From the NCBI GenBank assembly GCA_965230605.1, contig CBDDLD010000004.1:181768-245767 (forward strand): a DNA stretch of 64,000 nucleotides. Direction: 5' to 3'. The notes beneath the pieces are model-generated. The model ran no database searches and was not told the origin of the DNA. It saw only the letters and a list, made by a program, of their open reading frames with translations. Below, piece by piece: positions 3,779 through 40,542 of this stretch (positions are counted from its first letter, which is position 1; every line of letters begins with the position of its first letter). Source of the stretch: Winogradskyella sp. (GTDB taxonomy: Bacteria > Bacteroidota > Bacteroidia > Flavobacteriales > Flavobacteriaceae). A program made the position numbers and the translations under genes.

Positions 3779-5845
3779 ATGAAAACCAATCTTAGTCGCA
3801 TTTTGGCGATATCAGGAATGGCATTCTTTACTATTGTTGCATGTAAAGATGATGCCAAGAAAGATACTGCCTTAGCAGAAGAGAAGATTCCAGGAATTAT
3901 CTTGGAGAATATGGACACAAATGTAAGTCCGAAAGACAATTTCTATGACTATGTTAATGGAAATTGGATGAAAACTAATACGATTCCAGATGACGAGTCA
4001 CGTTGGGGTGGTTTTGGTGTGTTGCGTAAATCTACAAGAAAAGATGTTCTGGATATCATCAACACATCTAAAGAATTAGGAACCTATAAGGAAGGTTCAG
4101 ACCAGCAAAAAGCACTTTTAATTTTTGAATCTGAATTAGATACCATTGCAAGAAATAAAGCTGGTATTGATCCAATACGCCCTATGTTAAAAGCTATTGA
4201 TGGGATTAATAACTTAGAAGATATGCAAACGGTTTTTGCTACAACTTTGGGAGTAAGTGCACCTTTTGCAGGAATTGGTGCTAACCCAGATCTTAATGAT
4301 AGTAGCATGAACACAGCATGGGTATTTCCAGGTGGTTTAGGACTACAAAGAGATTATTATGTAGACCAGGATAGCAAGACTAAAGAAATCAGAGGGCAAT
4401 ATGTAGATCATATTGCAAGAATGCTTCAGTTTATAGAGTATAGTGAAGCAGATGCTAAAGCTGCGGCATCTAAAATTCTTGACCTTGAAACACAATTAGC
4501 AACCCCTCGATTAGATAAAGTACAAAGTAGAGATATCCGTAATTTCAATAACCCAACGGCTTTAGGTGATCTTCAGGCAATGGCGCCTGCAATAAACTGG
4601 CAAAAGTTTATTGATGATATGGGTATTGAAAAGAAACTAGATACCGTATTAGTGATGCAACCTAAGTATATGAAGTCCATGAACGATTTCTTGACGTCTA
4701 CAAGTATCGATGACATTAAAACCTTAATGACATGGAGCACGTTAAATAATGCTGCTGGATTCTTGACAACAGACATGAATAAAGCCAATTGGGAGTTTTA
4801 TAGCCAAACACTCCGCGGAGCAAAAGCTCAACGTCCTGCTGAGGACAGAGCCTTAGGGACTGTTAATGGTACTGTAGGTGAGGCTATCGGTCAATTATAT
4901 GTTCAGGCTAAATTCCCACCAGAAGCTAAAGAAAAAGCTGAAAAAATGATTGCTAATGTGATCAAGGCTTTCCAAATCCGTATTGAGAAATTAGATTGGA
5001 TGAGTGAAGAAACCAAAGCTAAAGCTATTGAAAAGTTAGATAAGTTTACCGTTAAGATCGCTTACCCAGACGAATGGAGAGACTACTCTGAGATGATGGT
5101 GAAAGAAGGGAATAGCTATGCAGAAAATATGATGGCGGTAGGTGAGTGGAGCTTAAAAGAAAACTTATCTGAAATTAATGAGCCGGTAGATAAATCACGT
5201 TGGGGCATGTCACCGCAGACGGTTAATGCGTATTTCAATCCTTTAAACAATGAAATCGTTTTCCCAGCGGCAATCTTACAACCCCCTTTCTATAACTACA
5301 CAGCAGATGAAGCTGTAAACTATGGTGGTATAGGCGCAGTTATTGGCCATGAGATTTCTCATGCATTTGATGATTCTGGTGCACGTTTTGATGCAGATGG
5401 TAACGTAAATAACTGGTGGACACCAGAAGATCTTGAAGAGTTTACTAAAAGAGGAAATGCTTTAGTTGAACAATATGATGCTATTGAAGTTTTAGATAGC
5501 GTTTATATTAATGGTAAGTTCACATTAGGAGAAAACATTGGAGATTTAGGTGGTGTATTAGGAGCTTATGATGGACTACAATTATATTTTGACGAAAATG
5601 GAAGACCTGGTAAGATAGATGGATTTACGCCAGAGCAGCGTTTCTTTATGTCTTGGGCGACCGTATGGAGAACATTGATAAGAGAGGATGCGTTACGTAC
5701 TCAAATAAAAACAGATCCACATTCTCCCGGAAGATACAGAGCAACGCAACCACTTAAAAATGTTGATGCGTTCTATGAAGCGTTTGATATTAAAGAAGGT
5801 GATGCAATGTACTTACCACCAGAAAAGCGTGTAAGAATTTGGTAA
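3779..5845 (+). CDS. M13 family zinc metallopeptidase (neprilysin/PepO-like endopeptidase), lipoprotein
   Basis: HEISHAFDD zinc-binding HExxH motif, NAYY/NAYF motif, C-terminal ENIGDLGG motif, and a signal peptide with lipobox (IVAC). 688 aa. Confidence 0.85.
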   Translation: MKTNLSRILAISGMAFFTIVACKDDAKKDTALAEEKIPGIILENMDTNVSPKDNFYDYVNGNWMKTNTIPDDESRWGGFGVLRKSTRKDVLDIINTSKELGTYKEGSDQQKALLIFESELDTIARNKAGIDPIRPMLKAIDGINNLEDMQTVFATTLGVSAPFAGIGANPDLNDSSMNTAWVFPGGLGLQRDYYVDQDSKTKEIRGQYVDHIARMLQFIEYSEADAKAAASKILDLETQLATPRLDKVQSRDIRNFNNPTALGDLQAMAPAINWQKFIDDMGIEKKLDTVLVMQPKYMKSMNDFLTSTSIDDIKTLMTWSTLNNAAGFLTTDMNKANWEFYSQTLRGAKAQRPAEDRALGTVNGTVGEAIGQLYVQAKFPPEAKEKAEKMIANVIKAFQIRIEKLDWMSEETKAKAIEKLDKFTVKIAYPDEWRDYSEMMVKEGNSYAENMMAVGEWSLKENLSEINEPVDKSRWGMSPQTVNAYFNPLNNEIVFPAAILQPPFYNYTADEAVNYGGIGAVIGHEISHAFDDSGARFDADGNVNNWWTPEDLEEFTKRGNALVEQYDAIEVLDSVYINGKFTLGENIGDLGGVLGAYDGLQLYFDENGRPGKIDGFTPEQRFFMSWATVWRTLIREDALRTQIKTDPHSPGRYRATQPLKNVDAFYEAFDIKEGDAMYLPPEKRVRIW

Positions 5846-20396: not shown

Positions 20397-22982
20397 ATGT
20401 CTACACCACCAAAGTTAGCACGGTTTAATACAAACGTTCTTAATAAGTACCAGATATACAATGGTATTTTTATGACTTTGCCATTTGATGCGCTTTCAAA
20501 AACAGTTGCTTTATTACCACTGTTTTATGAAACGTGCAAAAAAGGGTTTGAAGTTGGTGATGATCCGTCTGTGATAGTACAGACTTTTTTCAAAAAATAT
20601 CAAGCAAGGCGTTCACACGAAAGCCAGATCAATTTATTATTTCGATTTATTCAATATATAGAACGCCAAGTTGTTTTGTTTGATGCTATTGAAGATGCAG
20701 CCTTTTCAGTTGTTAATAATATGGATGGTATAGGAACACTAAGGAGTCTAAAAGAAAACGCTGTAGCAGAAAATAAAAAACAATTATTAAGGGAATATTT
20801 AGAGGCTTTTAAGGTTCGTATTGTTTTAACTGCACATCCTACACAATTTTATCCGGGTACAGTTTTGGGGATCATTACAGATTTATCAGAAGCGATTAAG
20901 GAGGATAATCTGCCCGAGATAAATAATCTGCTGGCACAGTTAGGTAAAACACCTTTTTTCAAAGACAAAAAACCTACGCCATATGATGAGGCTGTGAACC
21001 TAATTTGGTACCTAAAAAATGTATTCTATAAATCGTTTGGAACCATTTATGATTATGTGCAGCAAAACATTTTTGATGATCAGCCTATTAATAATTCTAT
21101 TCTTAATATAGGGTTTTGGCCAGGAGGAGATAGAGATGGTAATCCATTTGTAACACCACAAATTACTATAGATGTTGCAAAGAAACTTAAAGAAGCCATC
21201 ATCAAGAATTATATAAAAGATGTAAAGTATCTTAGAAGAAGACTCACTTTCAAAGGCGTTAGAGAGCGCATTATTGATTTAAATCACCAGTTATATAATA
21301 CGTTGTTAGATAAAAATGAAGATCAGCAAATTACACTTGAGGCATTTGTAACAGAATTAAAATCTATTCACCAAATATTAATTACAGACCATCAATCGCT
21401 ATATATAGATAAGGTAAACTCACTAATTAATAAGACTACTATTTTTGGATTTCATTTTGCGAGCTTAGACATAAGGCAAGATAGTCGAGTACATGATAGT
21501 ATGTTTAATGCATTAGTTGAAGAGCTCATAGAGAATGACAGTTCTTTATTCCCACCTCATTATTTTGACCTTGAGTTAGAAGACCAATTAAATTACCTAT
21601 CGCAAGTCAATGGATCTATCGGAGCTATTGTTTTCAAGGATGAACAAGCTATAAATATTGTTGAAACGATAAGAGCAATGAAAATCATTCAAGAACAGAA
21701 TGGGGAATTGGCATGTAACCGATATGTTATCAGCAATAATCAAACAACACTGAATGTATTACAACTGTTTGCTATGCTCAAGATAGTTGCTTTTCACGAT
21801 AATCTAACTGCTGATATAGTTCCTCTTTTTGAAACGGTTGCAGATTTAGAAGTGTCTCCAAAGGTGATGGAAGATCTTTATCAAAACCCTCATTATAGAG
21901 CACACTTAAAACAACGCGGAAACAAACAAACCATTATGTTGGGCTTTAGTGATGGTACTAAAGATGGTGGTTATCTGATGGCAAATTGGGCCATATTTAA
22001 GGCTAAAGAAGCACTTACATTCGTGTCTAGACAATACGATATAGATGTTATTTTCTTTGATGGTAGAGGAGGTCCTCCTGCTCGAGGTGGAGGGAAAACA
22101 CATCAATTTTATGCGTCATTGGGGCCAACAATTGAAGACAAAGAAATACAACTTACGATTCAGGGGCAGACTGTAAGCTCTAATTTTGGAACTCTTGAGT
22201 CTTCACAATACAATATGGAACAGCTTATAAGTTCGGGTATTTCAAATCATTTGAATGATAAGAATCTAGAGATGCTTTCTGAGGATAAGAAAGTCATGGA
22301 CGATTTAGCCAGCCATAGCTATACAGCCTATGTAGCATTTAAAAATCATCCCAAGTTCTTAACATATTTAGAACAAATGAGCACGCTAAAATATTATGCT
22401 AAAACCAATATTGGAAGCCGTCCTTCTAAAAGAGGAAAATCTTCAAAACTAGTATTCTCTGACCTTAGAGCCATTCCTTTTGTAGGGAGTTGGAGTCAAC
22501 TGAAACAAAATGTCCCAGGGTTCTATGGTGTCGGAACTGCCCTTAAGATATATGAAGACCGAGGAGAATTTGATAAGGTGAAACAGTTGTATACCAATTC
22601 TAAATTTTTCAAAACTTTAATTGAAAACAGTATGATGTCTTTGACTAAATCATTTTTTAGTTTAACAAAGTATATGTCTGAAGATGAAGAATTTGGTGAG
22701 TTTTGGAATATAATATATGAGGAATATAAAACAAGTAAACGACTAATATTAAAGCTTACTGGTTACAAGGAGCTTATGGAAAATGAAGCTGTAGGTAGAG
22801 CCTCAATAGAAGTTAGAGAATCTATAGTATTACCTCTTTTAACTATACAACAATACGCCTTGAAAAAGGTTCAGGAACTACAAAAAAGTAAAGATGTAGA
22901 TCCTGAAACACTTGCTATTTATGAAAAGATTGTGACTCGGTCACTATTTGGTAATATCAATGCCAGTAGAAACTCTGCCTAG
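20397..22982 (+). CDS. ppc: Phosphoenolpyruvate carboxylase
   Basis: VLTAHPTQF active-site motif, a Gly-rich C-terminal loop FDGRGGPPARGGG, and a C-terminal ...NINASRNSA-type end. 861 aa. Confidence 0.9.
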   Translation: MSTPPKLARFNTNVLNKYQIYNGIFMTLPFDALSKTVALLPLFYETCKKGFEVGDDPSVIVQTFFKKYQARRSHESQINLLFRFIQYIERQVVLFDAIEDAAFSVVNNMDGIGTLRSLKENAVAENKKQLLREYLEAFKVRIVLTAHPTQFYPGTVLGIITDLSEAIKEDNLPEINNLLAQLGKTPFFKDKKPTPYDEAVNLIWYLKNVFYKSFGTIYDYVQQNIFDDQPINNSILNIGFWPGGDRDGNPFVTPQITIDVAKKLKEAIIKNYIKDVKYLRRRLTFKGVRERIIDLNHQLYNTLLDKNEDQQITLEAFVTELKSIHQILITDHQSLYIDKVNSLINKTTIFGFHFASLDIRQDSRVHDSMFNALVEELIENDSSLFPPHYFDLELEDQLNYLSQVNGSIGAIVFKDEQAINIVETIRAMKIIQEQNGELACNRYVISNNQTTLNVLQLFAMLKIVAFHDNLTADIVPLFETVADLEVSPKVMEDLYQNPHYRAHLKQRGNKQTIMLGFSDGTKDGGYLMANWAIFKAKEALTFVSRQYDIDVIFFDGRGGPPARGGGKTHQFYASLGPTIEDKEIQLTIQGQTVSSNFGTLESSQYNMEQLISSGISNHLNDKNLEMLSEDKKVMDDLASHSYTAYVAFKNHPKFLTYLEQMSTLKYYAKTNIGSRPSKRGKSSKLVFSDLRAIPFVGSWSQLKQNVPGFYGVGTALKIYEDRGEFDKVKQLYTNSKFFKTLIENSMMSLTKSFFSLTKYMSEDEEFGEFWNIIYEEYKTSKRLILKLTGYKELMENEAVGRASIEVRESIVLPLLTIQQYALKKVQELQKSKDVDPETLAIYEKIVTRSLFGNINASRNSA

Positions 22983-24196
22983 AAGAATTTAGAAATTGAG
23001 AGTCTGAGAAAGCTATCTTCACTAAAGTTAGACAATATAAACTCATTAGGATCAATGCTACTAAATATTCTGGCTTCAATTTCAGCAGTCCAACTATTTC
23101 CTATTCTTCGTGAGGCTTCAAGGCTGAATATCTTACTACTCGATTCGAGATCAGCTATACCTCCAATTAAGATTGATGTGTCCTGAACATCATTAAATGC
23201 AATTCGGCTTCCAAAGAACAAATCATTCTGTAATGCAGTTAATGCTAATTCATCACGCTCATCATATAAATACTCACTCAATACACCAATATCTAAACCA
23301 TTCCCGTCGATATTGCTAAAGGTATATTCTAGCCCACCTACAAATGCTATAAAATCTTGGGCATCTGCATGCCGATATATAGATTCAAATTTCCAAAGAA
23401 AAGCATTGTGTGTTATTTGTATATCCACACCGGTTTGATTGATCACCGGATAAAATGCATTAATACCACCTTGATTATCAAAAGTAAATAAAGGTTCTCT
23501 ACCATTTCCATAAAAATGGGATAAACCTATATCAAAAGCGCCGACGAAATAAGACCACCTAAATGCAAAATCCTGTCGCCATTCTTCAGCACCGCTCTCA
23601 TATGTTAAATCATCTTTATCAATAACTATAGGGAATCTTAAGCGACCAGCTTCACCAGCAAAAGTACGTTTGCGATGATATGGTAAATAGAAGAAGTCAA
23701 AAGTTCCATAGTTATTAGTGATCCAAGTAAATTGCACCATGGGCTGCCCTAATTTATCCTCCCCATCAAAAGATTCTACGGCATCGGTTTGATTGATAAC
23801 ATCCACAAGATGATTGCTTTCTGCAACGCCCCAATATATTTTTTTAGCACCAATACTTAACTCCCAATTACCTTTTGCTTTCTGATAATAGAGTTCTCTT
23901 ATATCCCAGTGTGTTCTTGAGTCATCTCTATCGATTCTTAGAAACCCTGTAAAGTTGATACTTTCATAACCATCATTCCATTCTAAAGTGTATTCCGGAC
24001 GGAAAGCTAAAGATGGAAAATGTGTTTTTTGGTCTTCAAAGGCATTATCATCATAGAAATAGCGATACTCTGCTTCAATTTCTAATTCAAAATCACTATT
24101 GAGATTACTTTCAGAAGCATTCTGAGCCATAGTGTAAGATGTAGTTCCTATGATGAATAGCAGGGTGTAAGTGGCTTTTTTAATATTAAAACTCAT
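22979..24196 (-). CDS. Outer-membrane beta-barrel protein (DUF1302-like partner of the MMPL exporter)
   Basis: Signal peptide, alternating amphipathic beta-strand pattern, C-terminal Phe. Last gene of the TetR-MMPL-LolA-like operon. Confidence 0.5.
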   Translation of the reverse strand: MSFNIKKATYTLLFIIGTTSYTMAQNASESNLNSDFELEIEAEYRYFYDDNAFEDQKTHFPSLAFRPEYTLEWNDGYESINFTGFLRIDRDDSRTHWDIRELYYQKAKGNWELSIGAKKIYWGVAESNHLVDVINQTDAVESFDGEDKLGQPMVQFTWITNNYGTFDFFYLPYHRKRTFAGEAGRLRFPIVIDKDDLTYESGAEEWRQDFAFRWSYFVGAFDIGLSHFYGNGREPLFTFDNQGGINAFYPVINQTGVDIQITHNAFLWKFESIYRHADAQDFIAFVGGLEYTFSNIDGNGLDIGVLSEYLYDERDELALTALQNDLFFGSRIAFNDVQDTSILIGGIADLESSSKIFSLEASRRIGNSWTAEIEARIFSSIDPNEFILSNFSEDSFLRLSISKFF

Positions 24197-29621: not shown

Positions 29622-29703
29622 GGGAATGCGTCCACGTTGGAGAGTGGAGCCAGTCTGTAAAACTGGTGCCTTGGCTGAATAGGTTCGAATCCTATGATTC
29701 CCA
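29622..29703 (+). tRNA. tRNA-Tyr (GTA), class II with long variable arm, non-canonical C8
   Basis: Acceptor gggaatg/gattccc (6 of 7 pairs), anticodon stem ccagt/actgg with loop ctGTAaa, variable arm tgccttggctgaat, T-arm atagg-ttcgaat-cctat, discriminator A. Confidence 0.6.
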
Positions 29704-29708
29704 CAAAA

Positions 29709-29780
29709 GCATCTGTAGTGTAATTGGTAACATAGTAGACTTCCAATCTGCAGTTTCGGGTTCGAGTCTCGACAGGTGCT
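29709..29780 (+). tRNA. tRNA-Gly (TCC)
   Basis: Acceptor gcatctg/caggtgc, D-stem gtgt/acat, anticodon stem gtaga/tctgc with loop ctTCCaa, T-arm tcggg-ttcgagt-ctcga. Confidence 0.65.
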
Positions 29781-29790
29781 CATTTAAAAC

Positions 29791-29862
29791 ACGCTTATGG
29801 TGTAATTGGCAGCATCTGAGTCTCCAAAACTTAGGGTTGAGGTTCAAATCCTTATGGGCGTG
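29791..29862 (+). tRNA. tRNA-Trp (CCA), A1 start
   Basis: Acceptor acgctta/tgggcgt (includes G-U pairs), anticodon stem tgagt/actta with loop ctCCAaa, T-arm tgagg-ttcaaat-cctta. Confidence 0.6.
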
Positions 29863-29868
29863 CAAACT

Positions 29869-29941
29869 ATATCTATGGTGTAATTGGATAGCACAAGAGA
29901 TTTCTAATCTCTGAGTCCGAGTTCGACTCTTGGTAGATATA
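29869..29941 (+). tRNA. tRNA-Arg (TCT), A/T-only acceptor stem
   Basis: Acceptor atatcta/tagatat (7 of 7 pairs), D-stem gtgt/gcac, anticodon stem agaga/tctct with loop ttTCTaa, T-arm ccgag-ttcgact-cttgg, discriminator A. Confidence 0.65.
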
Positions 29942-29947
29942 CATAAT

Positions 29948-30019
29948 AGTATCGTGGTCTAATGGTAAGACACTTGACTGTCTCTCGAGAAGATGCGAGT
30001 TCGAATCTCGTCGGTACTG
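29948..30019 (+). tRNA. tRNA-Asp (GTC)-like, non-canonical T37
   Basis: Acceptor agtatcg/cggtact, D-arm gtct-aatggta-agac, anticodon stem cttga/tcgag with loop ctGTCtc (a pyrimidine at position 37), T-arm gcgag-ttcgaat-ctcgt. Confidence 0.5.
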
Positions 30020-30020
30020 C

Positions 30021-30105
30021 AAAAAGCGCTCTGAGAATACCGGTTATGGTGCTGGGTTCTATAGAAGAAGTATAAGAGGCCATGGCTTTACAGAGCGCAT
30101 TTTTT
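30021..30105 (+). other. 73-nt structured spacer closed by an 8-bp inverted repeat (aaaaaGCGCTCTG ... CAGAGCGCattttt) within the tRNA array
   Basis: The perfect 8-bp terminal stem is flanked by an A5 run on the 5' side and a T6 run on the 3' side. The interior carries the ACCGGT and GCCATGGC palindromes and has no T-loop. Function unknown. Confidence 0.4.
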
Positions 30106-30192
30106 GGAGAGTAGGCAAATATTGGTTTGTTGCGCTCACCTGCTAAGTGAGTTTACTTAGAGGTAATGAAGGTTCGATTCCTTTGCTCTCCG
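30106..30192 (+). tRNA. tRNA-Ser (GCT), class II
   Basis: Acceptor ggagagt/gctctcc, anticodon stem ctcac/gtgag with loop ctGCTaa, long variable arm ttacttagaggtaa, T-arm gaagg-ttcgatt-ccttt, discriminator G. Confidence 0.7.
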
Positions 30193-30198
30193 CTTTAT

Positions 30199-30271
30199 GC
30201 TCCATTAGCATAGTGGTTTAGTGCATCCGGCTTTCTACCGGAAGACAAGGGTTCGATTCCCTTATGGAGTA
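30199..30271 (+). tRNA. tRNA-Glu (TTC), T37
   Basis: Acceptor gctccat/atggagt, D-stem gcat/gtgc, anticodon stem tccgg/ccgga with loop ctTTCta, T-arm aaggg-ttcgatt-ccctt. Confidence 0.6.
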
Positions 30272-30276
30272 CATAT

Positions 30277-30349
30277 TGAGGTGTAGCTTAATTGGTAGAG
30301 CACCATGCTTTTAACATGGGTGATTTGGGTTCGAGGCCCAATGCCTCAA
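30277..30349 (+). tRNA. tRNA-Lys (TTT), T1 start
   Basis: Acceptor tgaggtg/tgcctca, canonical D-arm tagcttaattggtagagc, anticodon stem ccatg/catgg with loop ctTTTaa, T-arm ttggg-ttcgagg-cccaa. Confidence 0.65.
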
Positions 30350-30355
30350 CAATTA

Positions 30356-30430
30356 GCAGGAATGGCGAAAATGGCAAACGCACTTGATTTAGAATCGAGG
30401 AATTTGGGAGTTCGAGTCTCTCTTCCTGTA
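30356..30430 (+). tRNA. tRNA-Leu (TAG)-like with Leu-type D-arm but short (about 6-7 nt) variable loop
   Basis: Acceptor gcaggaa/ttcctgt, D-arm gcg-aaaatggcaaa-cgc (3-bp stem with 11-nt loop, as in tRNA-Leu), anticodon stem cttga/tcgag with loop ttTAGaa, variable loop gaatttg, T-arm gggag-ttcgagt-ctctc, discriminator A. Confidence 0.55.
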
Positions 30431-30434
30431 CAAT

Positions 30435-30508
30435 ACTCCACTAGCCCAAATGGAAGAGGCAACAGTCTTAAACACTGTATAGTCCAAGTTCGACTCTTGG
30501 GTGGAGTA
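30435..30508 (+). tRNA. tRNA-Leu (TAA)-like with Leu-type D-arm but 5-nt variable loop, A1 start
   Basis: Acceptor actccac/gtggagt (7 of 7 pairs), D-arm gcc-caaatggaaga-ggc, anticodon stem acagt/actgt with loop ctTAAac, variable loop atagt, T-arm ccaag-ttcgact-cttgg, discriminator A. Confidence 0.55.
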
Positions 30509-30530
30509 CAATAACCTAGCAGGTTATCTG

Positions 30531-30600
30531 GTGTCTATAGTGTAATGGCTCGCACGGGAGGTATATCCTCCCAGATCAAGTTCGAATCTTGATAGACATC
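30531..30600 (+). pseudogene. tRNA-like unit with truncated anticodon arm (6-bp stem, 5-nt loop tatat), probable pseudo-tRNA
   Basis: Acceptor gtgtcta/tagacat, D-arm gtgt-aatggctc-gcac, T-arm tcaag-ttcgaat-cttga. The anticodon region GGGAGGtatatCCTCCC cannot form a 7-nt loop. The unit is 70 nt. Confidence 0.45.
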
Positions 30601-30605
30601 ATAAT

Positions 30606-30678
30606 GGAACAGTAGCAAAGTTGGTCAATGCAGCAGATTGAAGCTCTGACGATATAGGTTCGATTCCTGTCTGTTCCG
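30606..30678 (+). tRNA. tRNA-Phe (GAA)
   Basis: Acceptor ggaacag/ctgttcc (7 of 7 pairs), anticodon stem gcaga/tctga (27-43 mismatch) with loop ttGAAgc, T-arm atagg-ttcgatt-cctgt, discriminator G. Confidence 0.6.
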
Positions 30679-30842
30679 CAATTAAAATATCAAGCTGGTC
30701 TTGTTGCGTGTTTCGGTATAGCACCATTGTATAAACCGTTGCAGAAATGTATAGCGGATTTATATGCAACCGGACTTGGAGGTTTGATGGTTCACCAAAA
30801 ACCATTACCAGTTCATGTGGGTTCGAATCCCACTATCTCTCA
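30679..30842 (+). pseudogene. Degenerate tRNA-like remnants (a D-arm-like ggtatagcacc; a Trp-like anticodon hairpin tggtt-caCCAaa-aacca with A33; an intact T-arm gtggg-ttcgaat-cccac with no matching 5' acceptor)
   Basis: The 3' portion folds like a tRNA 3' half, and its anticodon loop differs from the upstream tRNA-Trp loop (ctccaaa) by one substitution. No 5' acceptor strand complementary to tatctct could be found. Confidence 0.35.
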
Positions 30843-30953
30843 ACGGGATATGGCGGAAATGGCAGACGCACTAGATTTCGGTTCTAGCGAACAGTTGACA
30901 TCTGTAAAATGTCTCTTTTAGCACAGGTTCGATTCCTGTCAAAGCCACCATTT
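30843..30953 (+). pseudogene. Mosaic tRNA-like unit: Leu-type D-arm and anticodon arm (loop ttTCGgt), then a Tyr-like hairpin (gacat-ctGTAaa-atgtc), then the 3' half of tRNA-Met (T-arm, acceptor caaagcc, discriminator A, encoded CCA)
   Basis: The 5' strand cgggata does not pair with the 3' strand caaagcc. That 3' strand is exactly complementary to the 5' acceptor ggctttg of the downstream partial tRNA-Met. Confidence 0.4.
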
Positions 30954-31003
30954 AGGCTTTGTAGCTCAGTCCGGTTAGAGCGCTGCACTCATAATGCAGG
31001 TCG
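30954..31003 (+). pseudogene. tRNA-Met (CAT) 5' part (acceptor, D-arm, anticodon arm) lacking its own T-arm and 3' acceptor strand
   Basis: ggctttg-ta-gctc-agtccggttag-agc-g-ctgca-ctCATaa-tgcag, followed by the palindrome GGTCTTAAGACC in place of a T-arm. The matching 3' half lies immediately upstream at about 30920-30953. Confidence 0.5.
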
Positions 31004-31451
31004 GGTCTTAAGACCTCCATAAGCTTATCATCTTGTAAAACTGATAGTAAAGTAGTTTGTCACACTACTCAACAAAAATGACAAAAAGTAGTGATTGCCA
31101 ATCGGCCTAATAAATAACATTAGTGTTCAAAAAAGGCAATCTTAACGGTACCTTGATCTGTTGATTTGTTTTGCTTTAAGCAGTGACTTTTAGTGGATGA
31201 TTAAGATAAAATTATAGACAACCTACGATCTAAAATTCACCTTGATAAGAAACAAAAAACTTACTGTAGCGCGCATTACTATGAATAGATCCGTATTGAA
31301 GGGATGATTTGCAATCACACTTTTTTAAAGTAAAAAGATGAATTAAAAACAAACTCAAATGCATAGGTTACTTGCGCTTTAGCATTTGAGTGGCATAAGC
31401 CTCCGTTACAGGAATTGCCAAATATAGATGTTTAATTAAAAACTAAGAACA

Positions 31452-32549
31452 ATGAAACAAGTAAGAATTAATGCAGGTAAAGTTGGTTTAGTCTTCAAAA
31501 AAGGAGATTACCAAAAAGTATTGACAAAAGGTAAATACTTGCTAGGCTTTTGGCAAAAAGTATACAAATACGATTTGTCTAAAGCATTCCAAACACCAAT
31601 AGCATTAGAACTCTTAGTTAAGGATAAATCCTTGGAGGCTATGTTAGATGTTATTGAAGTTAAGGATAACGAGCTGGTATTGGTGTTTGAAAACAAAATT
31701 TTCAAAAATGTATTAACCGCAGGTAGATATGTCTACTGGAAAGGTTTGATTGAGCGTAAGTTTACCAGAGTAGACCTAAGCAAGATCTACATTACAGAGG
31801 AAATTGATAAGGCCTTATTTGGTAAGTACGAGCTTAGCAAATACATTAGAACTTTTGAAGTTGCGCCTTACGAGAAGGCTGTGCTTATCATTGATGATGT
31901 ATATGAAAAAACGCTTGAGGCCGGTACATACCGCTTCTGGAGAAATGATACGTCTATTAAGATTGCTAAAGCCGATTTACGTCAGTTGCAGTTAGAAATT
32001 GCCGGACAAGAATTGTTAACTAAAGATAAGGCTGCGATCCGTATCAACTTTTACACACAGTATAAAGTTACAGATATAGAGAAAGCCCTTTTAGAAAACA
32101 AGGATTATGAAAAGCAATTATACATTGCTATGCAATTAGTATTACGTGCATATGTAGGGACTTACACTTTAGATGAACTTTTAGAGCGTAAGGACAATAT
32201 TGCAGAAGCAGTATTTGAAGATGTTAAAGAAGCTGCATCTAAGTTAGGTGTTACTATTTTGAATACAGGTATTAGAGATGTAATCTTAACTGGTGAAATG
32301 AAAGATATCATGAACCAGGTACTTGTCGCTCAAAAGAGAGCACAAGCTAATATAATCACTAGACGTGAAGAAACTGCATCTACAAGAAGCTTATTAAACA
32401 CAGCAAAATTGATGGAAGAGAATGAGATGTTATTTAAGCTTAAAGAGATGGAGTATGTTGAGAAGATTGCTGAAAAGATTGGTGAAATTACAGTTTCCGG
32501 TAACGGAAACGTTGTGACTCAATTAAAAGAGATTTTCTCTGGAAAATAA
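31452..32549 (+). CDS. SPFH/band-7 (stomatin/prohibitin-like) domain protein, apparently without an N-terminal TM anchor
   Basis: SPFH core with a coiled-coil C-terminal region (AQKRAQANIITRREETAS...). No hydrophobic N-terminal segment is visible. Confidence 0.75.
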   Translation: MKQVRINAGKVGLVFKKGDYQKVLTKGKYLLGFWQKVYKYDLSKAFQTPIALELLVKDKSLEAMLDVIEVKDNELVLVFENKIFKNVLTAGRYVYWKGLIERKFTRVDLSKIYITEEIDKALFGKYELSKYIRTFEVAPYEKAVLIIDDVYEKTLEAGTYRFWRNDTSIKIAKADLRQLQLEIAGQELLTKDKAAIRINFYTQYKVTDIEKALLENKDYEKQLYIAMQLVLRAYVGTYTLDELLERKDNIAEAVFEDVKEAASKLGVTILNTGIRDVILTGEMKDIMNQVLVAQKRAQANIITRREETASTRSLLNTAKLMEENEMLFKLKEMEYVEKIAEKIGEITVSGNGNVVTQLKEIFSGK

Positions 32550-33495: not shown

Positions 33496-35886
33496 TTATC
33501 CTTTTGTGTCCAAAGTTATAACTTCTGAGACAAATTCGTTATCATTGGTAATGCCCTCAACATATAGATTTATCTCACCGATTTTAGTGTCAAATAGATT
33601 TATTTGTATTTCTCCATTTTCATTGGGTTGTAACTTTGGGAACCATCCGATGGTTCCATATTCTTTGAAGAAGGATGATGTGTAGAATTGGTATTTAGGG
33701 ATGTAAAACTTTTTTTTACTTTCAAATGTTAACGGTACTTTATAAGTGACAACATTGTCCGAATTTTTTTGAGCTGGACCATTCGGGTGTGTATATATTT
33801 TTATGAATCCGGCTTGTCCTCTAAATCCACCACCAAGACCTCGAAATTCAGATTCTATATAATCTACCATTTCGGTAGTTAAAAATGTAAGCGGTGTAAA
33901 ATCATTTAAAAGTGCATCATCCAGATACACTAAAGGAACATCTTTACCTCTGAGAATTTTAGGGTTGCGGATGACCAAAGTACCCGAGAAATAATCAAAT
34001 TGTGTCCGCCATCCTAATCGTTCAAGGTATAGATCTAAACGCTGCCCACGTAATCTATCATACTCATTAATAATACTTATTTTAGATTCTACAGCTTTAG
34101 TTAGAAGTTTTTCTGCTCGTGTTTGTTTTATATCTGTGGTAATTAGAACCTCGTCTAATTGCTCAACATTATCCCAAGACTCAACTGTGATAGGTTCACT
34201 AATAGAGAAATCATCTTTAGTGAAGCTCTCAGTCAGTGTGGTATAGCTGTTTGAATAGTCTGCAAAATTAGAAGGGTAAAATTGCAGGTATAGAGATGGC
34301 TTATTGTTGAATTTTGCTTTGTTTTTAAGGTAACCAATTCTAAAAAGATCGTCATCAGTCGGAATCATCATTTTAGCAGTAAATTCTTTCTCCCCTTTAT
34401 TTAGTTCAAATAATTTGGTATTAGTCTTTTCAAGAGGATAAACAATATAGGTGCCATCTCCCTTTTCTCCATTCACATTAGCAACAACATCGATACCTCT
34501 TTCAAAAGCATAGATGAATGTGTCATCAAAATTAAAAACAGTATCCCAATTATAACTGCTCCAGCCCTGAGACATCATCAGAAGGTCCATCTTATAATTA
34601 GTTGCTCTGTCATCATTTTCGAAATAGAGGTGAGCCTTTTCTATGGGACCATTGACATAGGGTTGAAGATAGATTTGCGATAAGATATTGTGATTGTGAT
34701 TATAAGATTTTGTATCAGAAGGAAGGACCGATACGCTTAAAGAGGTGTAAGTGTCTTTTTTTAGTTGCTCTAAAGTCAAGGCAACACTAATGCTATCTTT
34801 TGTGTTTTGTATCTTGGGTTGAGAGACTTTCTGGTAATTAATACCATTTTTATTGAAGTATAAACGCTCTAAAAGAGGACGATTTTGTTCATCAAAAACG
34901 GTGAATATATTTATTCCTGGATATAGGTCATTGACTGAAAATGCTAAAGCATACGTAAGATTTTTACTCAACTTAAATTTGGTCAAAAGCATTTCATCTC
35001 CATTATGAACTGCAAGGGTATAAATGTGGTCTTTAATAGACGCATAGGTAGTACTATTTGTTTGAAGACCTATATTTACTTTGTTATTGAGTTCTGTAAG
35101 TGTCATCGCAATACCTAATGGAGCAATATCCTTAATAGGTGCTGTAACTTTATCTTCGGACAAGTTTATTTCTGCACTATATGTTTTTCCTGTCTTTGGA
35201 CTAAAAGCTGCTTTGCCAATCCCCACACTATTAAGCTTAAATTCACTTACAATAACACCTTCATTATCCTTAATTTGTCCTGTGGCTTCTGCAATACCGT
35301 ATCCAAAATCATTTTTTGCGATGATAGCTACAGCATTGGTAACATCATATAAGATATGACCGCCTTCTCCAAGGATCTGAAGGTCAATACTTTTGCTTTG
35401 TATTTTAGTGGGATTGATTACTGCATTATTATCGGCATCAATCACTTTAAAAGATTGCTGATAGTGATTGGCTTCTTTAAAATTACGCATCCAGTTGGTA
35501 TACGCCTTAAAGGTATACACTCCGATACTTAAAGAATCATCAATATTAAACACATTAGTCGCTAAACCATCTTCAACGTAAATTAATTTCTTCTTTAATA
35601 CATTACCCTTGTCATCGGATATGGTGCAATATAGATTGGTGGTCATTTTTGAACGCTCTTTGGTAAACTTGTCAAAAATGTAAGCAGTAAACCCTAGCAT
35701 TTCACCCTCTATATATGTGGACTTATTTAAATGAACATATGCTAATTCTCTTGGAGCAGCAGCATAATCTTCATAGATATCTAAGAGTTCTTCCTCTAAA
35801 TCGTTTTGAGCAAAGCCTAAAAAAGGCAATAGCATAAAGAAGCAATAAAAGTACTTTGCAGACGTGCTTTTTGGCAGTAATGGCAT
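33496..35886 (-). CDS. Secreted MG2-domain (alpha-2-macroglobulin-like) protein, paralog 1
   Basis: Signal peptide. The N-terminal YVHLNKSTYIEGEMLGFTAYIF...ISDDKGNVL region matches the MG2 consensus (DKPIYKPGQTV.F.....D.KGN). 796 aa, with high identity to the upstream paralog. Confidence 0.5.
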   Translation of the reverse strand: MPLLPKSTSAKYFYCFFMLLPFLGFAQNDLEEELLDIYEDYAAAPRELAYVHLNKSTYIEGEMLGFTAYIFDKFTKERSKMTTNLYCTISDDKGNVLKKKLIYVEDGLATNVFNIDDSLSIGVYTFKAYTNWMRNFKEANHYQQSFKVIDADNNAVINPTKIQSKSIDLQILGEGGHILYDVTNAVAIIAKNDFGYGIAEATGQIKDNEGVIVSEFKLNSVGIGKAAFSPKTGKTYSAEINLSEDKVTAPIKDIAPLGIAMTLTELNNKVNIGLQTNSTTYASIKDHIYTLAVHNGDEMLLTKFKLSKNLTYALAFSVNDLYPGINIFTVFDEQNRPLLERLYFNKNGINYQKVSQPKIQNTKDSISVALTLEQLKKDTYTSLSVSVLPSDTKSYNHNHNILSQIYLQPYVNGPIEKAHLYFENDDRATNYKMDLLMMSQGWSSYNWDTVFNFDDTFIYAFERGIDVVANVNGEKGDGTYIVYPLEKTNTKLFELNKGEKEFTAKMMIPTDDDLFRIGYLKNKAKFNNKPSLYLQFYPSNFADYSNSYTTLTESFTKDDFSISEPITVESWDNVEQLDEVLITTDIKQTRAEKLLTKAVESKISIINEYDRLRGQRLDLYLERLGWRTQFDYFSGTLVIRNPKILRGKDVPLVYLDDALLNDFTPLTFLTTEMVDYIESEFRGLGGGFRGQAGFIKIYTHPNGPAQKNSDNVVTYKVPLTFESKKKFYIPKYQFYTSSFFKEYGTIGWFPKLQPNENGEIQINLFDTKIGEINLYVEGITNDNEFVSEVITLDTKG

Positions 35887-38409: not shown

Positions 38410-40458
38410 TTAACTAATCTTTAAGCCATTAGTGATTTCTTGTTCTTCCGGATTGACAAATACAAGGTCGCCATTTTCATTTTCGGTCATAAGTATCATG
38501 CCCTCGCTTTCAACACCACGTAGAGCTCTAGGTGCTAAGTTTACTAAAACAGTCACTTTTTTACCGATTACCTCTTCTGGTTTGAAGCTTTCAGCAATAC
38601 CAGAAACAATAGTTCTTGTATCTATTCCTGTGTCAACTTTTAAAACTAAAAGCTTTTTTGTTTTAGGCATTTTTTCTGCTTCTAAAATGGTTCCCACTCT
38701 CATGTCGAGTTTTACGAAATCATCAAATGTGATGGTCTCTTTTTGAGGGTCAACCGTTTTGTTTGCAGCTTCATTTGCTTTTTTACTAGCTTCTAACTTA
38801 TCGAGTTGAATTTGAATCGTCTTATCTTCTATTTTTGAGAATAATAACTCTGATTTACCAATTTGGTGAGAAGATGAAATAAGCATCTCCTTTGAAGCAA
38901 TATCGCTCCAGGTATTGTTATCTGAATTTAAAATAGACTTTAATTTATTTGATGTAAATGGTAAGAACGGCTCAGACAGAACAGCCAATGCTGTAGCTAT
39001 TTGAAGTGCCACATACATAATAGTTTGTGTGCGTTCTTCATCTACCTTTATAGTTTTCCAAGGCTCTTCATCTGCTAGATACTTATTACCAAGACGAGCC
39101 AAGTTCATTAACTCTTGAGAGCCTTCCCTAAAGCGATAACGTTCAATTGAGCTTGCAATTACAGATGGATATGCTTTTACATTAGCAAGAGTCTCTTTAT
39201 CTACTTCATTGAGCGCTCCCGGTTGAGGGACTACACCATCATAATATTTATTTGTTAATACGACCACACGGTTAATAAAGTTACCGAAGATGGCTACCAG
39301 CTCATTATTGTTTCTTGCTTGGAAATCTTTCCATGTAAAATCGTTGTCTTTAGTTTCAGGGGCATTTGCTGTTAGAGCATAGCGTAAAACATCTTGCTGC
39401 TCTGGAAATTCTTTAAGATAATCAGGTAACCAAACAGCCCAGTTCTTAGACGTTGACAATTTGTTACCTTCAAGATTTAAAAACTCATTAGCAGGCACAT
39501 TTTCCGGGAGTATATAACTGCCTTCAGCTTTCAGCATAGAAGGGAAGATGATACAGTGAAAGACTATATTATCTTTTCCTATAAAGTGAACCAGTTTAGT
39601 CTCTTTGTCTTTCCAATAAGATGTCCAGTCTTTACCTTCACGTTCTGCCCATTCTTTAGTCGCAGAGATGTATCCTATAGGTGCATCAAACCATACATAC
39701 AGTACTTTACCTTCAGCACCTTCAACAGGAACCGGAATTCCCCAATCAAGATCTCTTGTAACAGCTCTTGGGCGTAAACCATCATCAATCCAAGATTTTA
39801 CTTGTCCGTATACATTAGGCTTCCAATCTTTTTTATGACCCTTAAGGATCCATTCGCGTAAAAAATCTTCATGCTTATTAAGTGGTAAAAACCAATGCTT
39901 TGTTTCCTTAAGCGTAGGAACATTACCTGTAATAGCAGATTTTGGATTGATAAGATCTGTAGCGTTATGGCTGGTTCCGCAGTTTTCACATTGGTCACCG
40001 TAGGCTTCTTCATATCCACATTTTGGGCATGTGCCTATAACAAATCTATCTGCTAAAAACTGATTGGCTTCTGCGTCATATAATTGCTCGGAAACTTCTT
40101 CTACAAACTCATTTTTATCATACAGTGTTTTAAAAAACTCCGACGCAGTTTCGTGGTGTATTTTGGCTGTAGTTCGGGAATAGTTATCGAAAGAAATACC
40201 AAAATCTTCAAAAGACTGTTTTATAATAGTGTGATATTTGTCAACAATATCCTGAGGTGATACACCTTCTTTTTTAGCTTTTATGGTAATTGGTACACCA
40301 TGCTCATCACTACCACAGATGAAGGCTACATCGTTACCCGTAAGCCTTAGGTATCTTGCATAAATATCTGCAGGCACATAAACGCCAGCCAAGTGACCAA
40401 TATGAATTGGGCCATTTGTGTATGGTAATGCTGCTGTGATGGTATATCTTTTGGACAT
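38410..40458 (-). CDS. metG: Methionine--tRNA ligase with C-terminal tRNA-binding (EMAP/Trbp111-like) domain
   Basis: HIGH motif (PIHIGHLAG), KMSKS-type region (GNKLSTSKN), Cys4 zinc knuckle (CPKCG...CENCG), C-terminal anticodon-binding OB domain. The ORF track extends 22 codons upstream to 40524, but MSKRYTIT is the conserved start. Confidence 0.9.
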
Positions 40459-40542
40459 TTTAATAACTTTAATGAAGGCACAAAAGTACATAATATAAAG
40501 GCGATTTAGAAAAAAAATGTACATTTACAAAAAGCACATCTA

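What the first reader, a model, noticed from the sequence alone, without database searches (positions are those of the whole stretch)
30843..31010. Split or permuted tRNA-Met(CAT): 3' half with encoded CCA lies upstream of the 5' half, with a mosaic tRNA-like unit attached
At 30954 a tRNA-Met(CAT) runs correctly through acceptor, D-arm and anticodon arm (ggctttg...ctCATaa...). Where the T-arm should be, it continues into the palindrome GGTCTTAAGACC. About 5 nt upstream of its 5' end sits acagg-ttcgatt-cctgt-CAAAGCC-A-CCA. This is a T-arm plus a 3' acceptor strand that pairs 7 of 7 with ggctttg, followed by a genomically encoded CCA. That 3' half is itself fused to a 5' part built from a Leu-like D-arm and anticodon arm plus a Tyr-like hairpin. 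The arrangement resembles the circularly permuted tRNA genes reported in Cyanidioschyzon merolae and a few archaea, which need the eukaryotic/archaeal splicing endonuclease. More conservatively, it could be a recombination scar between tandem tRNA copies, or a remnant junction of an element that integrates at the tRNA-Met 3' end. Either way it indicates active rearrangement inside the array.
Basis: seen in the sequence. Interest (0 to 1): 0.7.

Follow-up and report, generated by a model that had tools for sequence, protein, structure and literature searches.

The report
Conserved RNA with permuted tRNA-like modules
The "back-to-front" tRNA-Met is real, but it is one building block of a roughly 360-base structured RNA found upstream of the slipin gene in at least 98 Flavobacteriales species; this RNA strings together tRNA look-alikes whose acceptor stems are closed into hairpins, and it appears to be an undescribed RNA family rather than a broken gene.

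Summary
At 30923-30999 a T-arm, a 3' acceptor strand (CAAAGCC), ACCA and a 4-nt spacer come before the matching 5' acceptor strand (GGCTTTG), a D-arm and a CAU anticodon arm. A second unit with the same layout lies just upstream (30817-30887).

It is not a scar, an assembly artefact or an integration remnant. The junction recurs in independent assemblies and in other genera, and compensatory changes keep the acceptor helix paired (for example CGAGGTC/GATCTCG).

A conserved block 100 nt upstream occurs in 98 Flavobacteriales species genomes. In nearly all of them it is followed by 1-4 tandem modules of "T-arm / closed acceptor hairpin / D-arm", and then by the slipin gene 550-990 nt downstream on the same strand. 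All 7 acceptor pairs covary. A covariance model scores the two window modules 64 and 51 bits, against 14-36 bits for ordinary tRNA-tRNA junctions.

The module topology is that of the tRNA-like domain of YrlA (bacterial Y RNA). However, there is no Ro60 gene, no Ro-binding stem and no Rfam family match. tRNA arrays, and in some relatives GOLLD RNA, sit immediately upstream.

Best reading: a new structured RNA family built from permuted tRNA mimics. Its function is unknown. RNase P nicking of module B is a plausible but untested possibility.

The parts
29622..30679 (+). Context: array of 13 conventional tRNA genes. It ends 4 nt before the conserved start of the RNA element.
   Evidence: ARAGORN; Rfam tRNA hits of 32-66 bits. 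Arrays lie at this position in 46 of 79 related loci.
30684..30778 (+). Conserved 5' domain. It has a long-range helix P1 (30695-30700/30773-30778 and 30703-06/30767-70), a hairpin GTGTT-TCGGTAT-AGCAC (30708-24), and helix P3 (30729-35/30759-65) with a terminal hairpin.
   Evidence: RNAalifold on 33 species: 32 pairs, 15 with compensatory changes. The block TTGCGTGTTTCNGTATAGCACC was found in 98 species genomes.
30787..30805 (+). Hairpin H (ATGGTT-CACCAAA-AACCAT). The loop motif CCAAAAA is conserved across the family.
   Evidence: 6 pairs, most of them covarying.
30817..30833 (+). Module A T-arm (GTGGG-TTCGAAT-CCCAC).
   Evidence: Model R1 hit 30815-30870, 51.4 bits; weaker YrlA-like hit.
30834..30850 (+). 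Module A closed acceptor hairpin: TATCTC / loop TCAAC / GGGATA (6 bp).
   Evidence: The same hairpin is seen in L004 and L010.
30853..30887 (+). Module A D-arm (class II, Leu-like; 30853-69) and its own anticodon-arm-like hairpin CTAGA-TTTCGGT-TCTAG (30871-87).
   Evidence: The pairing with module B is conserved in L004, L010 and L106.
30897..30913 (+). It sits where a class II variable arm would be, between module A and T-arm B.
   Evidence: conserved in L004 and L010.
30923..30939 (+). Module B T-arm (ACAGG-TTCGATT-CCTGT).
   Evidence: R1 hit 30921-30982, 64.5 bits; YrlA partial hit of 28.9 bits covering the T/acceptor/D part of that model.
30940..30961 (+). Module B closed acceptor stem: CAAAGCC, then A-CCA-TTTA (the loop), then GGCTTTG (7 bp).
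   Evidence: Compensatory variants: CGAGGTC/GATCTCG (L004), CACAGCC/GGCTGTG (L029), CAAGGTC/GATCTTG (L021) and others. All 7 pairs covary.
30964..30999 (+). Module B D-arm (30964-81) and anticodon arm with CAU (30983-99).
   Evidence: CAT is one of the recurrent triplets in this module type.
31004..31015 (+). Mini-hairpin GGTC-TTAA-GACC (the 'palindrome'). The stem is kept and the loop varies in relatives (GGTC-ATTAA-GACC in L001, GGTC-ATTATA-GACC in L004 and L010).
   Evidence: unique in the window.
31024..31047 (+). Conserved tail hairpin CTTATCA-TCTTGTAAAAC-TGATAG. It is the last block conserved beyond close relatives, so it marks the probable 3' limit of the core element.
31452..32549 (+). 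Context: slipin (SPFH/Band 7) gene. It lies downstream on the same strand in essentially every related locus that has enough sequence.
   Evidence: Pfam; tblastn positions +550 to +990 from the conserved block.

Best explanation
The flagged sequence is the 3' part of a single conserved structured RNA (core about 30684-31047, + strand) that is specific to Flavobacteriales. The RNA has a conserved 5' domain, a hairpin with a CCAAAAA loop, a variable number (1-4) of tandem tRNA-like modules, and a tail hairpin.

Each module is a circularly permuted tRNA body. The T-arm comes first. The acceptor stem is a closed hairpin made from what look like the 3' strand of one tRNA and the 5' strand of the next. 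The D-arm follows. The anticodon-stem position is filled in one of two ways: by the module's own hairpin (type II, as in both window modules) or by pairing of the two flanks (type I).

Shown here: the modules keep the elements of the tRNA core, namely U8, A14, the GG of the D-loop and the TTCRA T-loop. Inferred: each module therefore folds into an L-shaped tRNA mimic, and the RNA most likely works as a platform or decoy presenting several tRNA-like surfaces to proteins or RNAs that recognise tRNA. It could act as a free RNA or as the leader of the slipin transcript.

Also inferred, not shown: the RNA is probably released from, or co-transcribed with, the tRNA array that abuts its 5' end. Module B, with a 7-bp acceptor stem, A73-like base, CCA and a short single-stranded linker, may be nicked by RNase P, as was shown for the 7-bp-stem YrlA of Mycobacterium smegmatis.
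For: (1) The same junction occurs in independent assemblies and in other genera with compensatory changes.
(2) The conserved block is present in 98 species-representative genomes, all Flavobacteriales. 135 of the 150 best module hits lie at fixed offsets (+113-130, +177-224, +284-309) from it.
(3) Covariation. On a MAFFT alignment not fitted to structure, the acceptor helix is 92% paired and 7/7 pairs change on both sides, against 31-45% paired in slid controls. The 150-hit alignment gives the same result.
(4) An anchored test that does not use complementarity gave at least 6/7 pairs in 89/141 distinct junctions inside the element, against 23/227 in the neighbouring real tRNA arrays.
(5) Many acceptor hairpins are 5 bp capped by GCAA, GTAA or GAAA tetraloops, so they are true hairpins.
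(6) The permuted reading averages 6.5/7 pairs and the conventional tRNA reading 3.9/7.
(7) Type I modules have a covarying closing stem: TCTAT/ATAGA, TCTGT/ACAGA, ACTAA/TTAGT, AACAT/ATGTT.
(8) The Rfam YrlA model aligns to exactly the T-arm/acceptor/D-arm part.
(9) The 5' domain has its own covarying structure.
(10) The slipin gene is always downstream on the same strand.
Against: - There are no expression, end-mapping or binding data, so the function and even the transcript boundaries are inferred.
- The related loci were retrieved with an exact 21-base pattern. The invariance of that block is therefore by construction, and the sample is biased towards conservation.
- The sequences are phylogenetically related, so shuffle statistics overstate independence.
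- Some neighbouring modules are paralogues with similar acceptor sequences. In those cases a conventional tRNA reading is also partly possible: 5/7 pairs for the window unit 30846-30947, and 12 of 26 module pairs have at least 5/7.
- ACCA after the 3' strand is not universal. Many loops read ACTA, ACAA or a tetraloop, which argues against obligatory CCA-end formation.
- Thermodynamic folding of the whole element is only modestly better than shuffles (z = -1.8).
Confidence: 0.8

Rival explanations
1. Decaying tandem tRNA pseudogenes or a recombination scar. Under this reading, two or three paralogous tRNA genes with the same acceptor stem were duplicated in tandem at the edge of the array and the outer halves were lost. 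The 3'-strand/5'-strand complementarity would then be a by-product with no function.
For: The loop of module B looks like an ordinary tRNA trailer plus spacer (A-CCA-TTTA). In real arrays, adjacent paralogous tRNAs give the same complementarity (23/227 junctions; 15 of the top 150 model hits). In some loci adjacent modules do share acceptor sequences. Module content differs between close relatives. This is a plausible evolutionary origin.
Against: The half-units are conserved across genera while their supposed missing halves are always missing. Acceptor pairs covary. Modules sit at fixed offsets from a conserved 5' domain. The element is present in genomes with no tRNA array at all (35/79 loci). 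GNRA-capped 5-bp acceptor hairpins cannot come from two separate tRNAs.
Confidence: 0.07
2. A true circularly permuted tRNA-Met gene. Its transcript would be circularised or ligated and re-cut to give a functional linear tRNA-Met, as in Cyanidioschyzon merolae and some archaea.
For: The 3' half with encoded CCA lies directly upstream of the 5' half. The acceptor is 7/7 paired and the D-arm and CAU anticodon arm are canonical.
Against: No bacterial pathway of this kind is known (established knowledge; reviews listed). The sequence after the anticodon arm (GTCG + GGTCTTAAGACC) and the sequence before the T-arm (TCTTTTAGC) are embedded in a larger RNA and do not form a recognisable processing helix. 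The anticodon triplet at this position varies among species (TTT, CAT, GTT, GAT). Sister modules have tetraloop-closed acceptors. ARAGORN and Rfam find no complete tRNA.
Confidence: 0.02
3. A bacterial Y RNA of the YrlA family that tethers a Ro60 (Rsr) protein to an effector.
For: The topology of the tRNA-like domain is the same. The best Rfam non-tRNA hit is YrlA (28.9 bits in the window; 31-40 bits in relatives). Tandem Y RNAs are known (PMC4201824).
Against: The scores are far below the gathering score of 69. The Ro-binding stems of the model are mismatched. There is no GNCGAAN0-1G motif in the element. There is no TROVE-domain gene within 4 kb or among the large ORFs of the 64-kb window. 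The synteny is with slipin, not rsr.
Confidence: 0.04
4. A remnant junction (attL/attR) of an element that integrated into the 3' end of a tRNA-Met gene.
For: Orphan tRNA 3' halves are typical of att sites. The locus is a hot spot where tRNA arrays and GOLLD RNA come and go.
Against: There is no integrase or other mobile-element gene nearby and no second copy of the palindrome or of the halves in the window. The block is absent from viral contigs. The junction is conserved with covariation over genus-level distances.
Confidence: 0.02

Closest known systems
YrlA-type bacterial Y RNAs (Rfam RF02553; Chen et al. 2014, PMC4201824)
   Same: Both have a tRNA-like domain in the order (anticodon-like stem)-variable-T-arm-closed acceptor stem-loop-D-arm. 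Both conserve tRNA core nucleotides. Both can occur in tandem. The 7-bp-acceptor version (M. smegmatis) is an RNase P substrate that receives CCA.
   Different: This RNA has no Ro60/TROVE gene nearby, no Ro-binding terminal helix and no GNCGAA motif. It carries 1-4 modules in one RNA, plus an unrelated conserved 5' domain. Many modules have a complete anticodon arm. Its fixed position is upstream of slipin and next to tRNA arrays.
Two-piece (circularly permuted) tmRNA of alpha-proteobacteria and cyanobacteria (RF04321, RF01850)
   Same: The gene order is T-arm, 3' acceptor strand, CCA, short intervening loop, 5' acceptor strand. Maturation by cutting that loop gives two base-paired pieces.
   Different: This RNA has no tag reading frame and no tmRNA pseudoknots. 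ARAGORN finds no tmRNA, and Rfam gives 22 bits against a gathering score of 47. It also has full D and anticodon arms, which tmRNA lacks.
Circularly permuted tRNA genes of Cyanidioschyzon merolae and Thermofilum (PMC3978253, PMC3218864)
   Same: The 3' half precedes the 5' half of one tRNA, joined by a short linker at the acceptor ends.
   Different: Those are stand-alone genes matured through a circular intermediate by the eukaryal/archaeal splicing endonuclease and ligase into ordinary tRNAs. Here the unit is embedded in a larger bacterial RNA, is chained to others, and has a variable anticodon.
tRNAs embedded in the linker of GOLLD RNA (RF02032; PMC12286853, PMC12990946)
   Same: Both are tRNA-like units covalently held inside a large structured RNA next to tRNA arrays. 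In relatives L001 and L004 a GOLLD RNA lies between the array and this element, and its linker holds a permuted module of the same kind (R1, 52 bits).
   Different: The window has no GOLLD. The element has no similarity to the GOLLD core and persists in genomes without GOLLD or arrays. The literature describes embedded tRNAs without saying that they are permuted.

Membership tests
YrlA / bacterial Y RNA (RF02553) | tRNA-like domain in the order T-arm, acceptor stem-loop, D-arm | tested here: met
   The Rfam alignment covers model positions 30-81. Structure and covariation are supported.
YrlA / bacterial Y RNA (RF02553) | Reaches the Rfam gathering score (69 bits) | tested here: not met
   28.9 bits in the window; at most 40.4 bits in relatives.
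YrlA / bacterial Y RNA (RF02553) | Ro60-binding helix formed by the 5' and 3' ends, with the GNCGAAN0-1G motif | tested here: not met
   The outer stems of the model are mismatched in the full-length alignment. GNCGAANG has no match in the element. By my reading of the sequence, GNCGAAG is also absent.
YrlA / bacterial Y RNA (RF02553) | Encoded within about 4 kb of an rsr (Ro60, TROVE domain) gene | tested here: not met
   The neighbours are TetR, TPR, slipin, a deacetylase and an ORF with no Pfam match. The large ORFs of the window contain no TROVE domain. The rest of the genome was not searched.
Circularly permuted tRNA gene (C. merolae / archaeal type) | 3' half upstream of the 5' half, joined at the acceptor ends by a short linker | tested here: met
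Circularly permuted tRNA gene (C. merolae / archaeal type) | Precursor termini form a bulge-helix-bulge motif, are cut by the splicing endonuclease, are ligated to a circle and re-opened to give a normal tRNA | not testable with these tools
   The predicted fold shows no helix between the flanks of the unit. Bacteria are not known to have this pathway (established knowledge).
Circularly permuted tRNA gene (C. merolae / archaeal type) | Fixed anticodon identity, serving decoding | tested here: not met
   The triplet at this position varies among species: TTT, CAT, GTT, GAT and others.
Two-piece tmRNA | Tag-peptide reading frame and pseudoknots; detection by ARAGORN or Rfam | tested here: not met
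   ARAGORN finds no tmRNA. RF04321 gives 22.2 bits against 47, and RF01850 gives 20.6 against 84.
Conventional tRNA gene or pseudogene | Cloverleaf in which the acceptor strands at the two ends of one unit pair with each other, plus a T-arm | tested here: not met
   ARAGORN calls none. The Rfam hit 30955-31016 lacks the T-arm, and the hit 30846-30947 has 2 acceptor mismatches. Neither alternative pairing is kept in L004 or L010.
GOLLD RNA (RF02032) | Match to the conserved 3' domain | tested here: not met
   No hit in the window even at E up to 10. GOLLD is present in relatives L001 and L004 at 137 and 134 bits.

The most novel reading that the evidence does not exclude
The RNA is a multivalent tRNA mimic that is actually processed like tRNA. 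RNase P would cut the single-stranded ACCA-UUUA loop of module B (and of similar 7-bp modules). That would leave a nicked, two-piece tRNA-Met-like body with a free (C)CA 3' end, still tethered to the rest of the RNA. This would be a bacterial 'split tRNA' analogous to two-piece tmRNA. Such a body could be aminoacylated, or bound by MetRS, EF-Tu or anticodon nucleases. The anticodon-position triplets in such modules are those of ANN-codon readers (UUU, CAU, GUU, GAU), and tRNA-Lys(UUU) is a known target of antiphage anticodon nucleases (from my own knowledge, not checked here). The RNA could therefore serve as a decoy or sensor linked to the accessory tRNA arrays and GOLLD RNA that gather at this locus.
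Probability: 0.1. Interest if true: 0.9.

Novelty: new variant of a known kind. Interest (0 to 1): 0.72.

Why it matters
Bacterial RNAs that mimic tRNA are few: tmRNA, YrlA Y RNAs, and some leaders and viral 3' ends. Each has revealed a distinct piece of biology.

This one differs in several ways. It chains several circularly permuted tRNA bodies behind a new conserved domain. It is present across a whole order of abundant marine and freshwater bacteria. It also marks the chromosomal spot where accessory tRNA arrays, and in some species the still function-less GOLLD RNA, accumulate.

It offers three things:
- a tractable, chromosomal, non-phage entry point to the question of why large structured RNAs travel with tRNA arrays;
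- a natural example of how permuted tRNA-like domains arise, by tandem duplication with swapped acceptor partners;
- a caution for annotation, because pipelines that use the Rfam tRNA threshold would call two false tRNA genes or pseudogenes here.

Tried and rejected
- Phage origin: rejected. The megablast search against phages gave only a 43-nt tRNA match. The conserved block is absent from IMG/VR contigs. The window consists of ordinary Flavobacteriaceae chromosomal genes.
- T-arm-less tRNA-Met (Rfam hit 30955-31016, with TAAGACC as the 3' strand): rejected. The pairing is not kept in L004 or L010.
- Conventional class II tRNA at 30846-30947: rejected. It has 5/7 acceptor pairs here and fewer in relatives.
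- Long-range pairing GGAGGU (30779-84) with ACCUCC (31013-18), predicted by RNAfold: rejected. It is not conserved in L001, L004 or Flavobacterium.
- Search for an intact tRNA-Met with the same two halves. None was found in the 105 loci fetched by then, and the tRNA-Met in L001's array is a different sequence. None was found in JGI metagenomes. This negative is weak, because only one metagenome contig holds even the permuted junction.
- Sigma-70 promoter and terminator scan: uninformative. Counts were at the shuffle level, and Bacteroidota use a different promoter consensus.
- The look-up of encoding contigs with the window's own slipin sequence found nothing. Relatives were reached through homologues instead.
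- Literature searches for a prior description found none (YrlA / tRNA-like; permuted tRNA / bacteria; Flavobacterium / tRNA-like; tRNA array / Flavobacteri; tRNA-like / Bacteroidetes). The library is incomplete.
Full report
**The observation**

- T-arm ACAGG-TTCGATT-CCTGT lies at 30923-39.
- It is followed by CAAAGCC (30940-46), A, CCA and TTTA.
- Then come GGCTTTG (30955-61, 7/7 complementary to CAAAGCC), TA, a canonical D-arm (30964-81) and an anticodon arm with CAU (30983-99).
- No T-arm follows. Instead there is GTCG and the palindrome GGTCTTAAGACC (31004-15).
- The upstream part has a Leu-like class II D-arm (30853-69), a hairpin with loop TTTCGGT (30871-87) and a hairpin with loop CTGTAAA (30897-913).

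ARAGORN finds 13 tRNAs in the window, 12 of them in an array at 29622-30679, and calls nothing in 30680-31016. Rfam's tRNA model gives two hits just above its threshold (30.3 and 29.7 bits against 29). One lacks the T-arm and the other has two acceptor mismatches.

T-arm 30817-33 is followed by TATCTC / TCAAC / GGGATA (30834-50), which closes onto the Leu-like D-arm. Rfam's best non-tRNA match at both places is the tRNA-like part of YrlA, a bacterial Y RNA. A weaker match is to permuted tmRNA.

**Genomic setting**

The window is ordinary Flavobacteriaceae chromosome.
- The gene 31452-32549 is a slipin (SPFH/Band 7). Its closest homologues are in Winogradskyella, Hanstruepera and related genera.
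- Upstream are a TPR protein, a TetR regulator and an MMPL transporter. Other large ORFs are housekeeping genes.
- No TROVE/Ro60 gene and no integrase was found.
- A phage search gave nothing relevant.

**Relatives show conservation, not decay**

I fetched syntenic loci through slipin homologues. All have the order TPR, tRNA array, non-coding stretch, slipin.
- L001 to L003 (96% slipin identity, three independent assemblies) carry the same junction with a different loop, ACCACTTG.
- L004 (88%) has CGAGGTC-ACCATAAATA-GATCTCG. Four of the seven pairs have changed, and pairing is kept.
- The palindrome is a small conserved hairpin: the stem GGTC/GACC is kept and the loop varies (TTAA, ATTAA, ATTATA).
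- A block about 100 nt upstream of the first module (...GGTCTTGTTGCGTGTTTCNGTATAGCACCATTGTA...) and a tail hairpin (...ATCATCTTGTAAAACTGAT...) are shared.

**A family across Flavobacteriales**

A 21-base pattern from that block matched 98 species-representative genomes. All are Flavobacteriales: Flavobacterium, Tenacibaculum, Kordia, Aquimarina, Aequorivita, Winogradskyella, Bergeyella and others. It matched no viral contig.

Downstream of the block, nearly every locus shows the same plan:
- the conserved 5' domain;
- a hairpin with loop CCAAAAA;
- tandem units of T-arm / hairpin / D-arm;
- the tail hairpin.

The slipin gene starts 550-990 nt after the block on the same strand in essentially every locus with enough sequence. 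At least three tRNAs lie within 3 kb upstream in 46 of 79 loci, and none lies within 1.5 kb in 35 of 79. The element therefore does not depend on the arrays, but arrays gather beside it.

**Tests of the permuted reading**

1. Anchored test. I took the 7 nt after each T-stem and the 7 nt before each D-arm spacer, without using complementarity. At least 6/7 pairs were found in 89 of 141 distinct junctions inside the element, against 23 of 227 in the real tRNA arrays upstream. The array cases are mostly adjacent paralogous tRNAs. Most low scorers inside the element are 5-bp stems with GNRA tetraloops that my offsets missed.
2. MAFFT alignment of 31 modules (A1). The acceptor helix is 92% paired and all 7 pairs change on both sides. 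Partners slid by 1-3 columns give 31-45% paired. The seeds were chosen for good stems, so this alignment alone is biased.
3. Covariance model R1. It scores the two window modules 64.5 and 51.4 bits, and ordinary tRNA-tRNA junctions of the adjacent array 14-36 bits. In 100 loci it finds 189 hits at E below 1e-7. Of the best 150, 135 lie inside the element at three fixed offsets. The remaining 15 lie outside it, including modules in GOLLD linkers and junctions within tRNA arrays. On that alignment the acceptor helix is 94% paired with 7/7 covarying pairs. This alignment is fitted to the model.
4. Reading comparison. The permuted pairing averages 6.5/7, and the conventional pairing (5' strand of one module with the 3' strand after the next T-arm) averages 3.9/7. 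The conventional value is above random because some neighbouring modules are paralogues. In the window it is 5/7.
5. Loop types. Closing loops include GCAA, GTAA and GAAA tetraloops on 5-bp stems, which only makes sense for a permanent hairpin.

**Two kinds of module**

Type I has no anticodon hairpin of its own. Its flanks pair (TCTAT/ATAGA, with covarying variants TCTGT/ACAGA, ACTAA/TTAGT and AACAT/ATGTT). This closing stem is present in 77 of 89 distinct modules. It is exactly the layout of the YrlA tRNA-like domain: the Rfam YrlA model aligns over it, including that 4-bp stem, but its Ro-binding stems do not match.

Type II is followed by its own 5-bp/7-nt hairpin with a canonical CU-NNN-AA loop. 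The triplets are mostly TTT (15), CAT (12), GTT (11) and GAT (3).

Both window modules are type II. L001, a close relative, has a type I module followed by module B, so the module set changes quickly. The pair Leu-like + Met-like seen in the window recurs in L004, L010 and the metagenome contig L106.

**The rest of the RNA**

The 5' domain has a covarying structure of its own, with a long-range helix, an inner hairpin and a three-part stem. The invariance of the inner hairpin is partly by construction, because it was my search pattern.

Beyond close relatives, sequence conservation downstream of the modules is limited to the tail hairpin (31020-45) and the slipin start region. I therefore place the core at about 30684-31047.

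Whole-element folding reproduces the modules, with z = -1.8. A predicted long-range helix to 31013-18 is not conserved.

**What it is**

The evidence supports a conserved structured RNA built from circularly permuted tRNA mimics. The flagged tRNA-Met is its last module.

Several alternatives are not supported:
- C. merolae-type permuted tRNA gene: the anticodon is variable, many acceptors are tetraloop-closed, there is no processing helix, and the unit is embedded in a larger RNA.
- YrlA Y RNA: there is no rsr within 4 kb or among the large ORFs of the window, no Ro-binding helix, no GNCGAA motif, and the score is far below threshold.
- tmRNA.
- att remnant.
- Assembly artefact.

The likely origin is tandem duplication of tRNA genes with swapped acceptor partners. 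This would explain why the loop of module B still looks like a tRNA trailer (A-CCA plus an A/T-rich spacer).

**How it may work (inferred)**

Each module keeps U8, A14, the D-loop GG and the T-loop, so it should form a tRNA-like elbow and acceptor arm. Such surfaces are read by RNase P, tRNA-modifying enzymes, the CCA-adding enzyme, EF-Tu, synthetases and anticodon nucleases.

M. smegmatis YrlA, the one Y RNA with a 7-bp acceptor, is cut by RNase P in vitro and gains CCA in vivo (PMC4201824). Module B has the same determinants, so nicking in the ACCA-UUUA loop is plausible. I rate it at about 0.3.

Against obligatory CCA-end formation, ACCA is not conserved across the family.

Whether the RNA acts in cis on slipin or as a free RNA cannot be decided from the sequence.

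**Comparison with known systems and novelty**

Rfam 15 has no family for this element. The window and seven relatives were scanned at permissive thresholds. Five literature searches found no description.

It shares its building block with YrlA and its junction logic with two-piece tmRNA. It differs from both in partners, in its multiple modules, in its 5' domain and in its genomic context.

Its neighbourhood links it to tRNA arrays and GOLLD. L001 and L004 carry GOLLD (137 and 134 bits) between the array and the element, and the GOLLD linker holds a permuted module of the same kind.

I rate it a new variant of a known kind, with interest 0.72.

Noticed in passing
L001 4530-5026 and L004 4484-4986 (relatives; absent from the window): A GOLLD RNA (RF02032, 137 and 134 bits, just under the gathering score of 150) lies between the tRNA array and the element. 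Its linker holds a circularly permuted tRNA-like unit (L001 4604-4662, with TCCTGAA-ACCA-CAC-TTAAGGA; R1 52 bits). The literature speaks of 'embedded tRNAs' in GOLLD linkers without saying they are permuted.
   Followed up: partly
L001 about 5040-5250; L004 about 5005-5212; L005 about 5043-5250: A tRNA-like unit with matching acceptor strands (L001: ACCTCTT...AAGAGGT), a D-arm and a T-arm, but with an insertion of roughly 140 nt after the D-arm region. It sits between GOLLD (or the array) and the element. ARAGORN does not call it and there is no Rfam hit. It is missing from the window.
   Followed up: no
L009 1441-1543 (Aquimarina): A Flavo-1 RNA motif (RF01705, 54 bits, above its gathering score) lies between the tRNA-like element and the slipin gene. 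It was not detected in the window.
   Followed up: partly
related loci L008-L105, upstream of the conserved block: The TPR-slipin intergenic region is a hot spot for accessory tRNA arrays: 46 of 79 loci have at least 3 tRNAs within 3 kb upstream, and the sets differ greatly between species. Tenacibaculum loci such as L021, L028 and L044 have none.
   Followed up: partly
window 30530-30601 (also L001 3980-4051): ARAGORN calls a 'tRNA-Tyr' with anticodon ATA and an unusual anticodon loop (GTATATC) inside the array. Rfam did not report it at E up to 10. It may be another non-standard tRNA-like unit.
   Followed up: no
type II modules in many loci: The anticodon-position triplets of modules that have their own anticodon hairpin are almost all those of tRNAs reading ANN codons: TTT Lys, CAT Met/Ile, GTT Asn, GAT Ile. 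This could reflect common descent or a shared recognition feature such as t6A37.
   Followed up: partly
window 30817-30913 versus L001 5404-5470: Genomes whose slipin proteins are 96% identical carry different first modules: a Leu-like type II module plus an extra hairpin in the window, and a type I module in L001. Modules are therefore swapped quickly while the frame of the RNA is kept.
   Followed up: partly
window 31048-31400: This roughly 350-nt non-coding stretch between the element and slipin is conserved only in close relatives. It contains mutually exclusive or pseudoknot-like pairings (AGTAGT...CACTACT...AGTAGTG; TTGTCA...TGACAA at 31051-31093). It may be a regulatory leader of slipin.
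   Followed up: no
window 38410-40524 (- strand): Methionyl-tRNA synthetase is encoded about 7 kb downstream of the tRNA-Met-like module. This is probably coincidence.
   Followed up: no
L009, L016, L020, L023, L027, L069, L098 and others, about 10-25 nt upstream of AAAATATCAAG: In loci where no tRNA directly abuts the element, a short motif AAGTTCATT precedes the conserved start. It may be part of a promoter. In the window its place is taken by the 3' end of tRNA-Phe.
   Followed up: no
window 33496-35886 (-) and 22979-24196 (-): Two large ORFs (796 and 405 aa) have no Pfam match.
   Followed up: no
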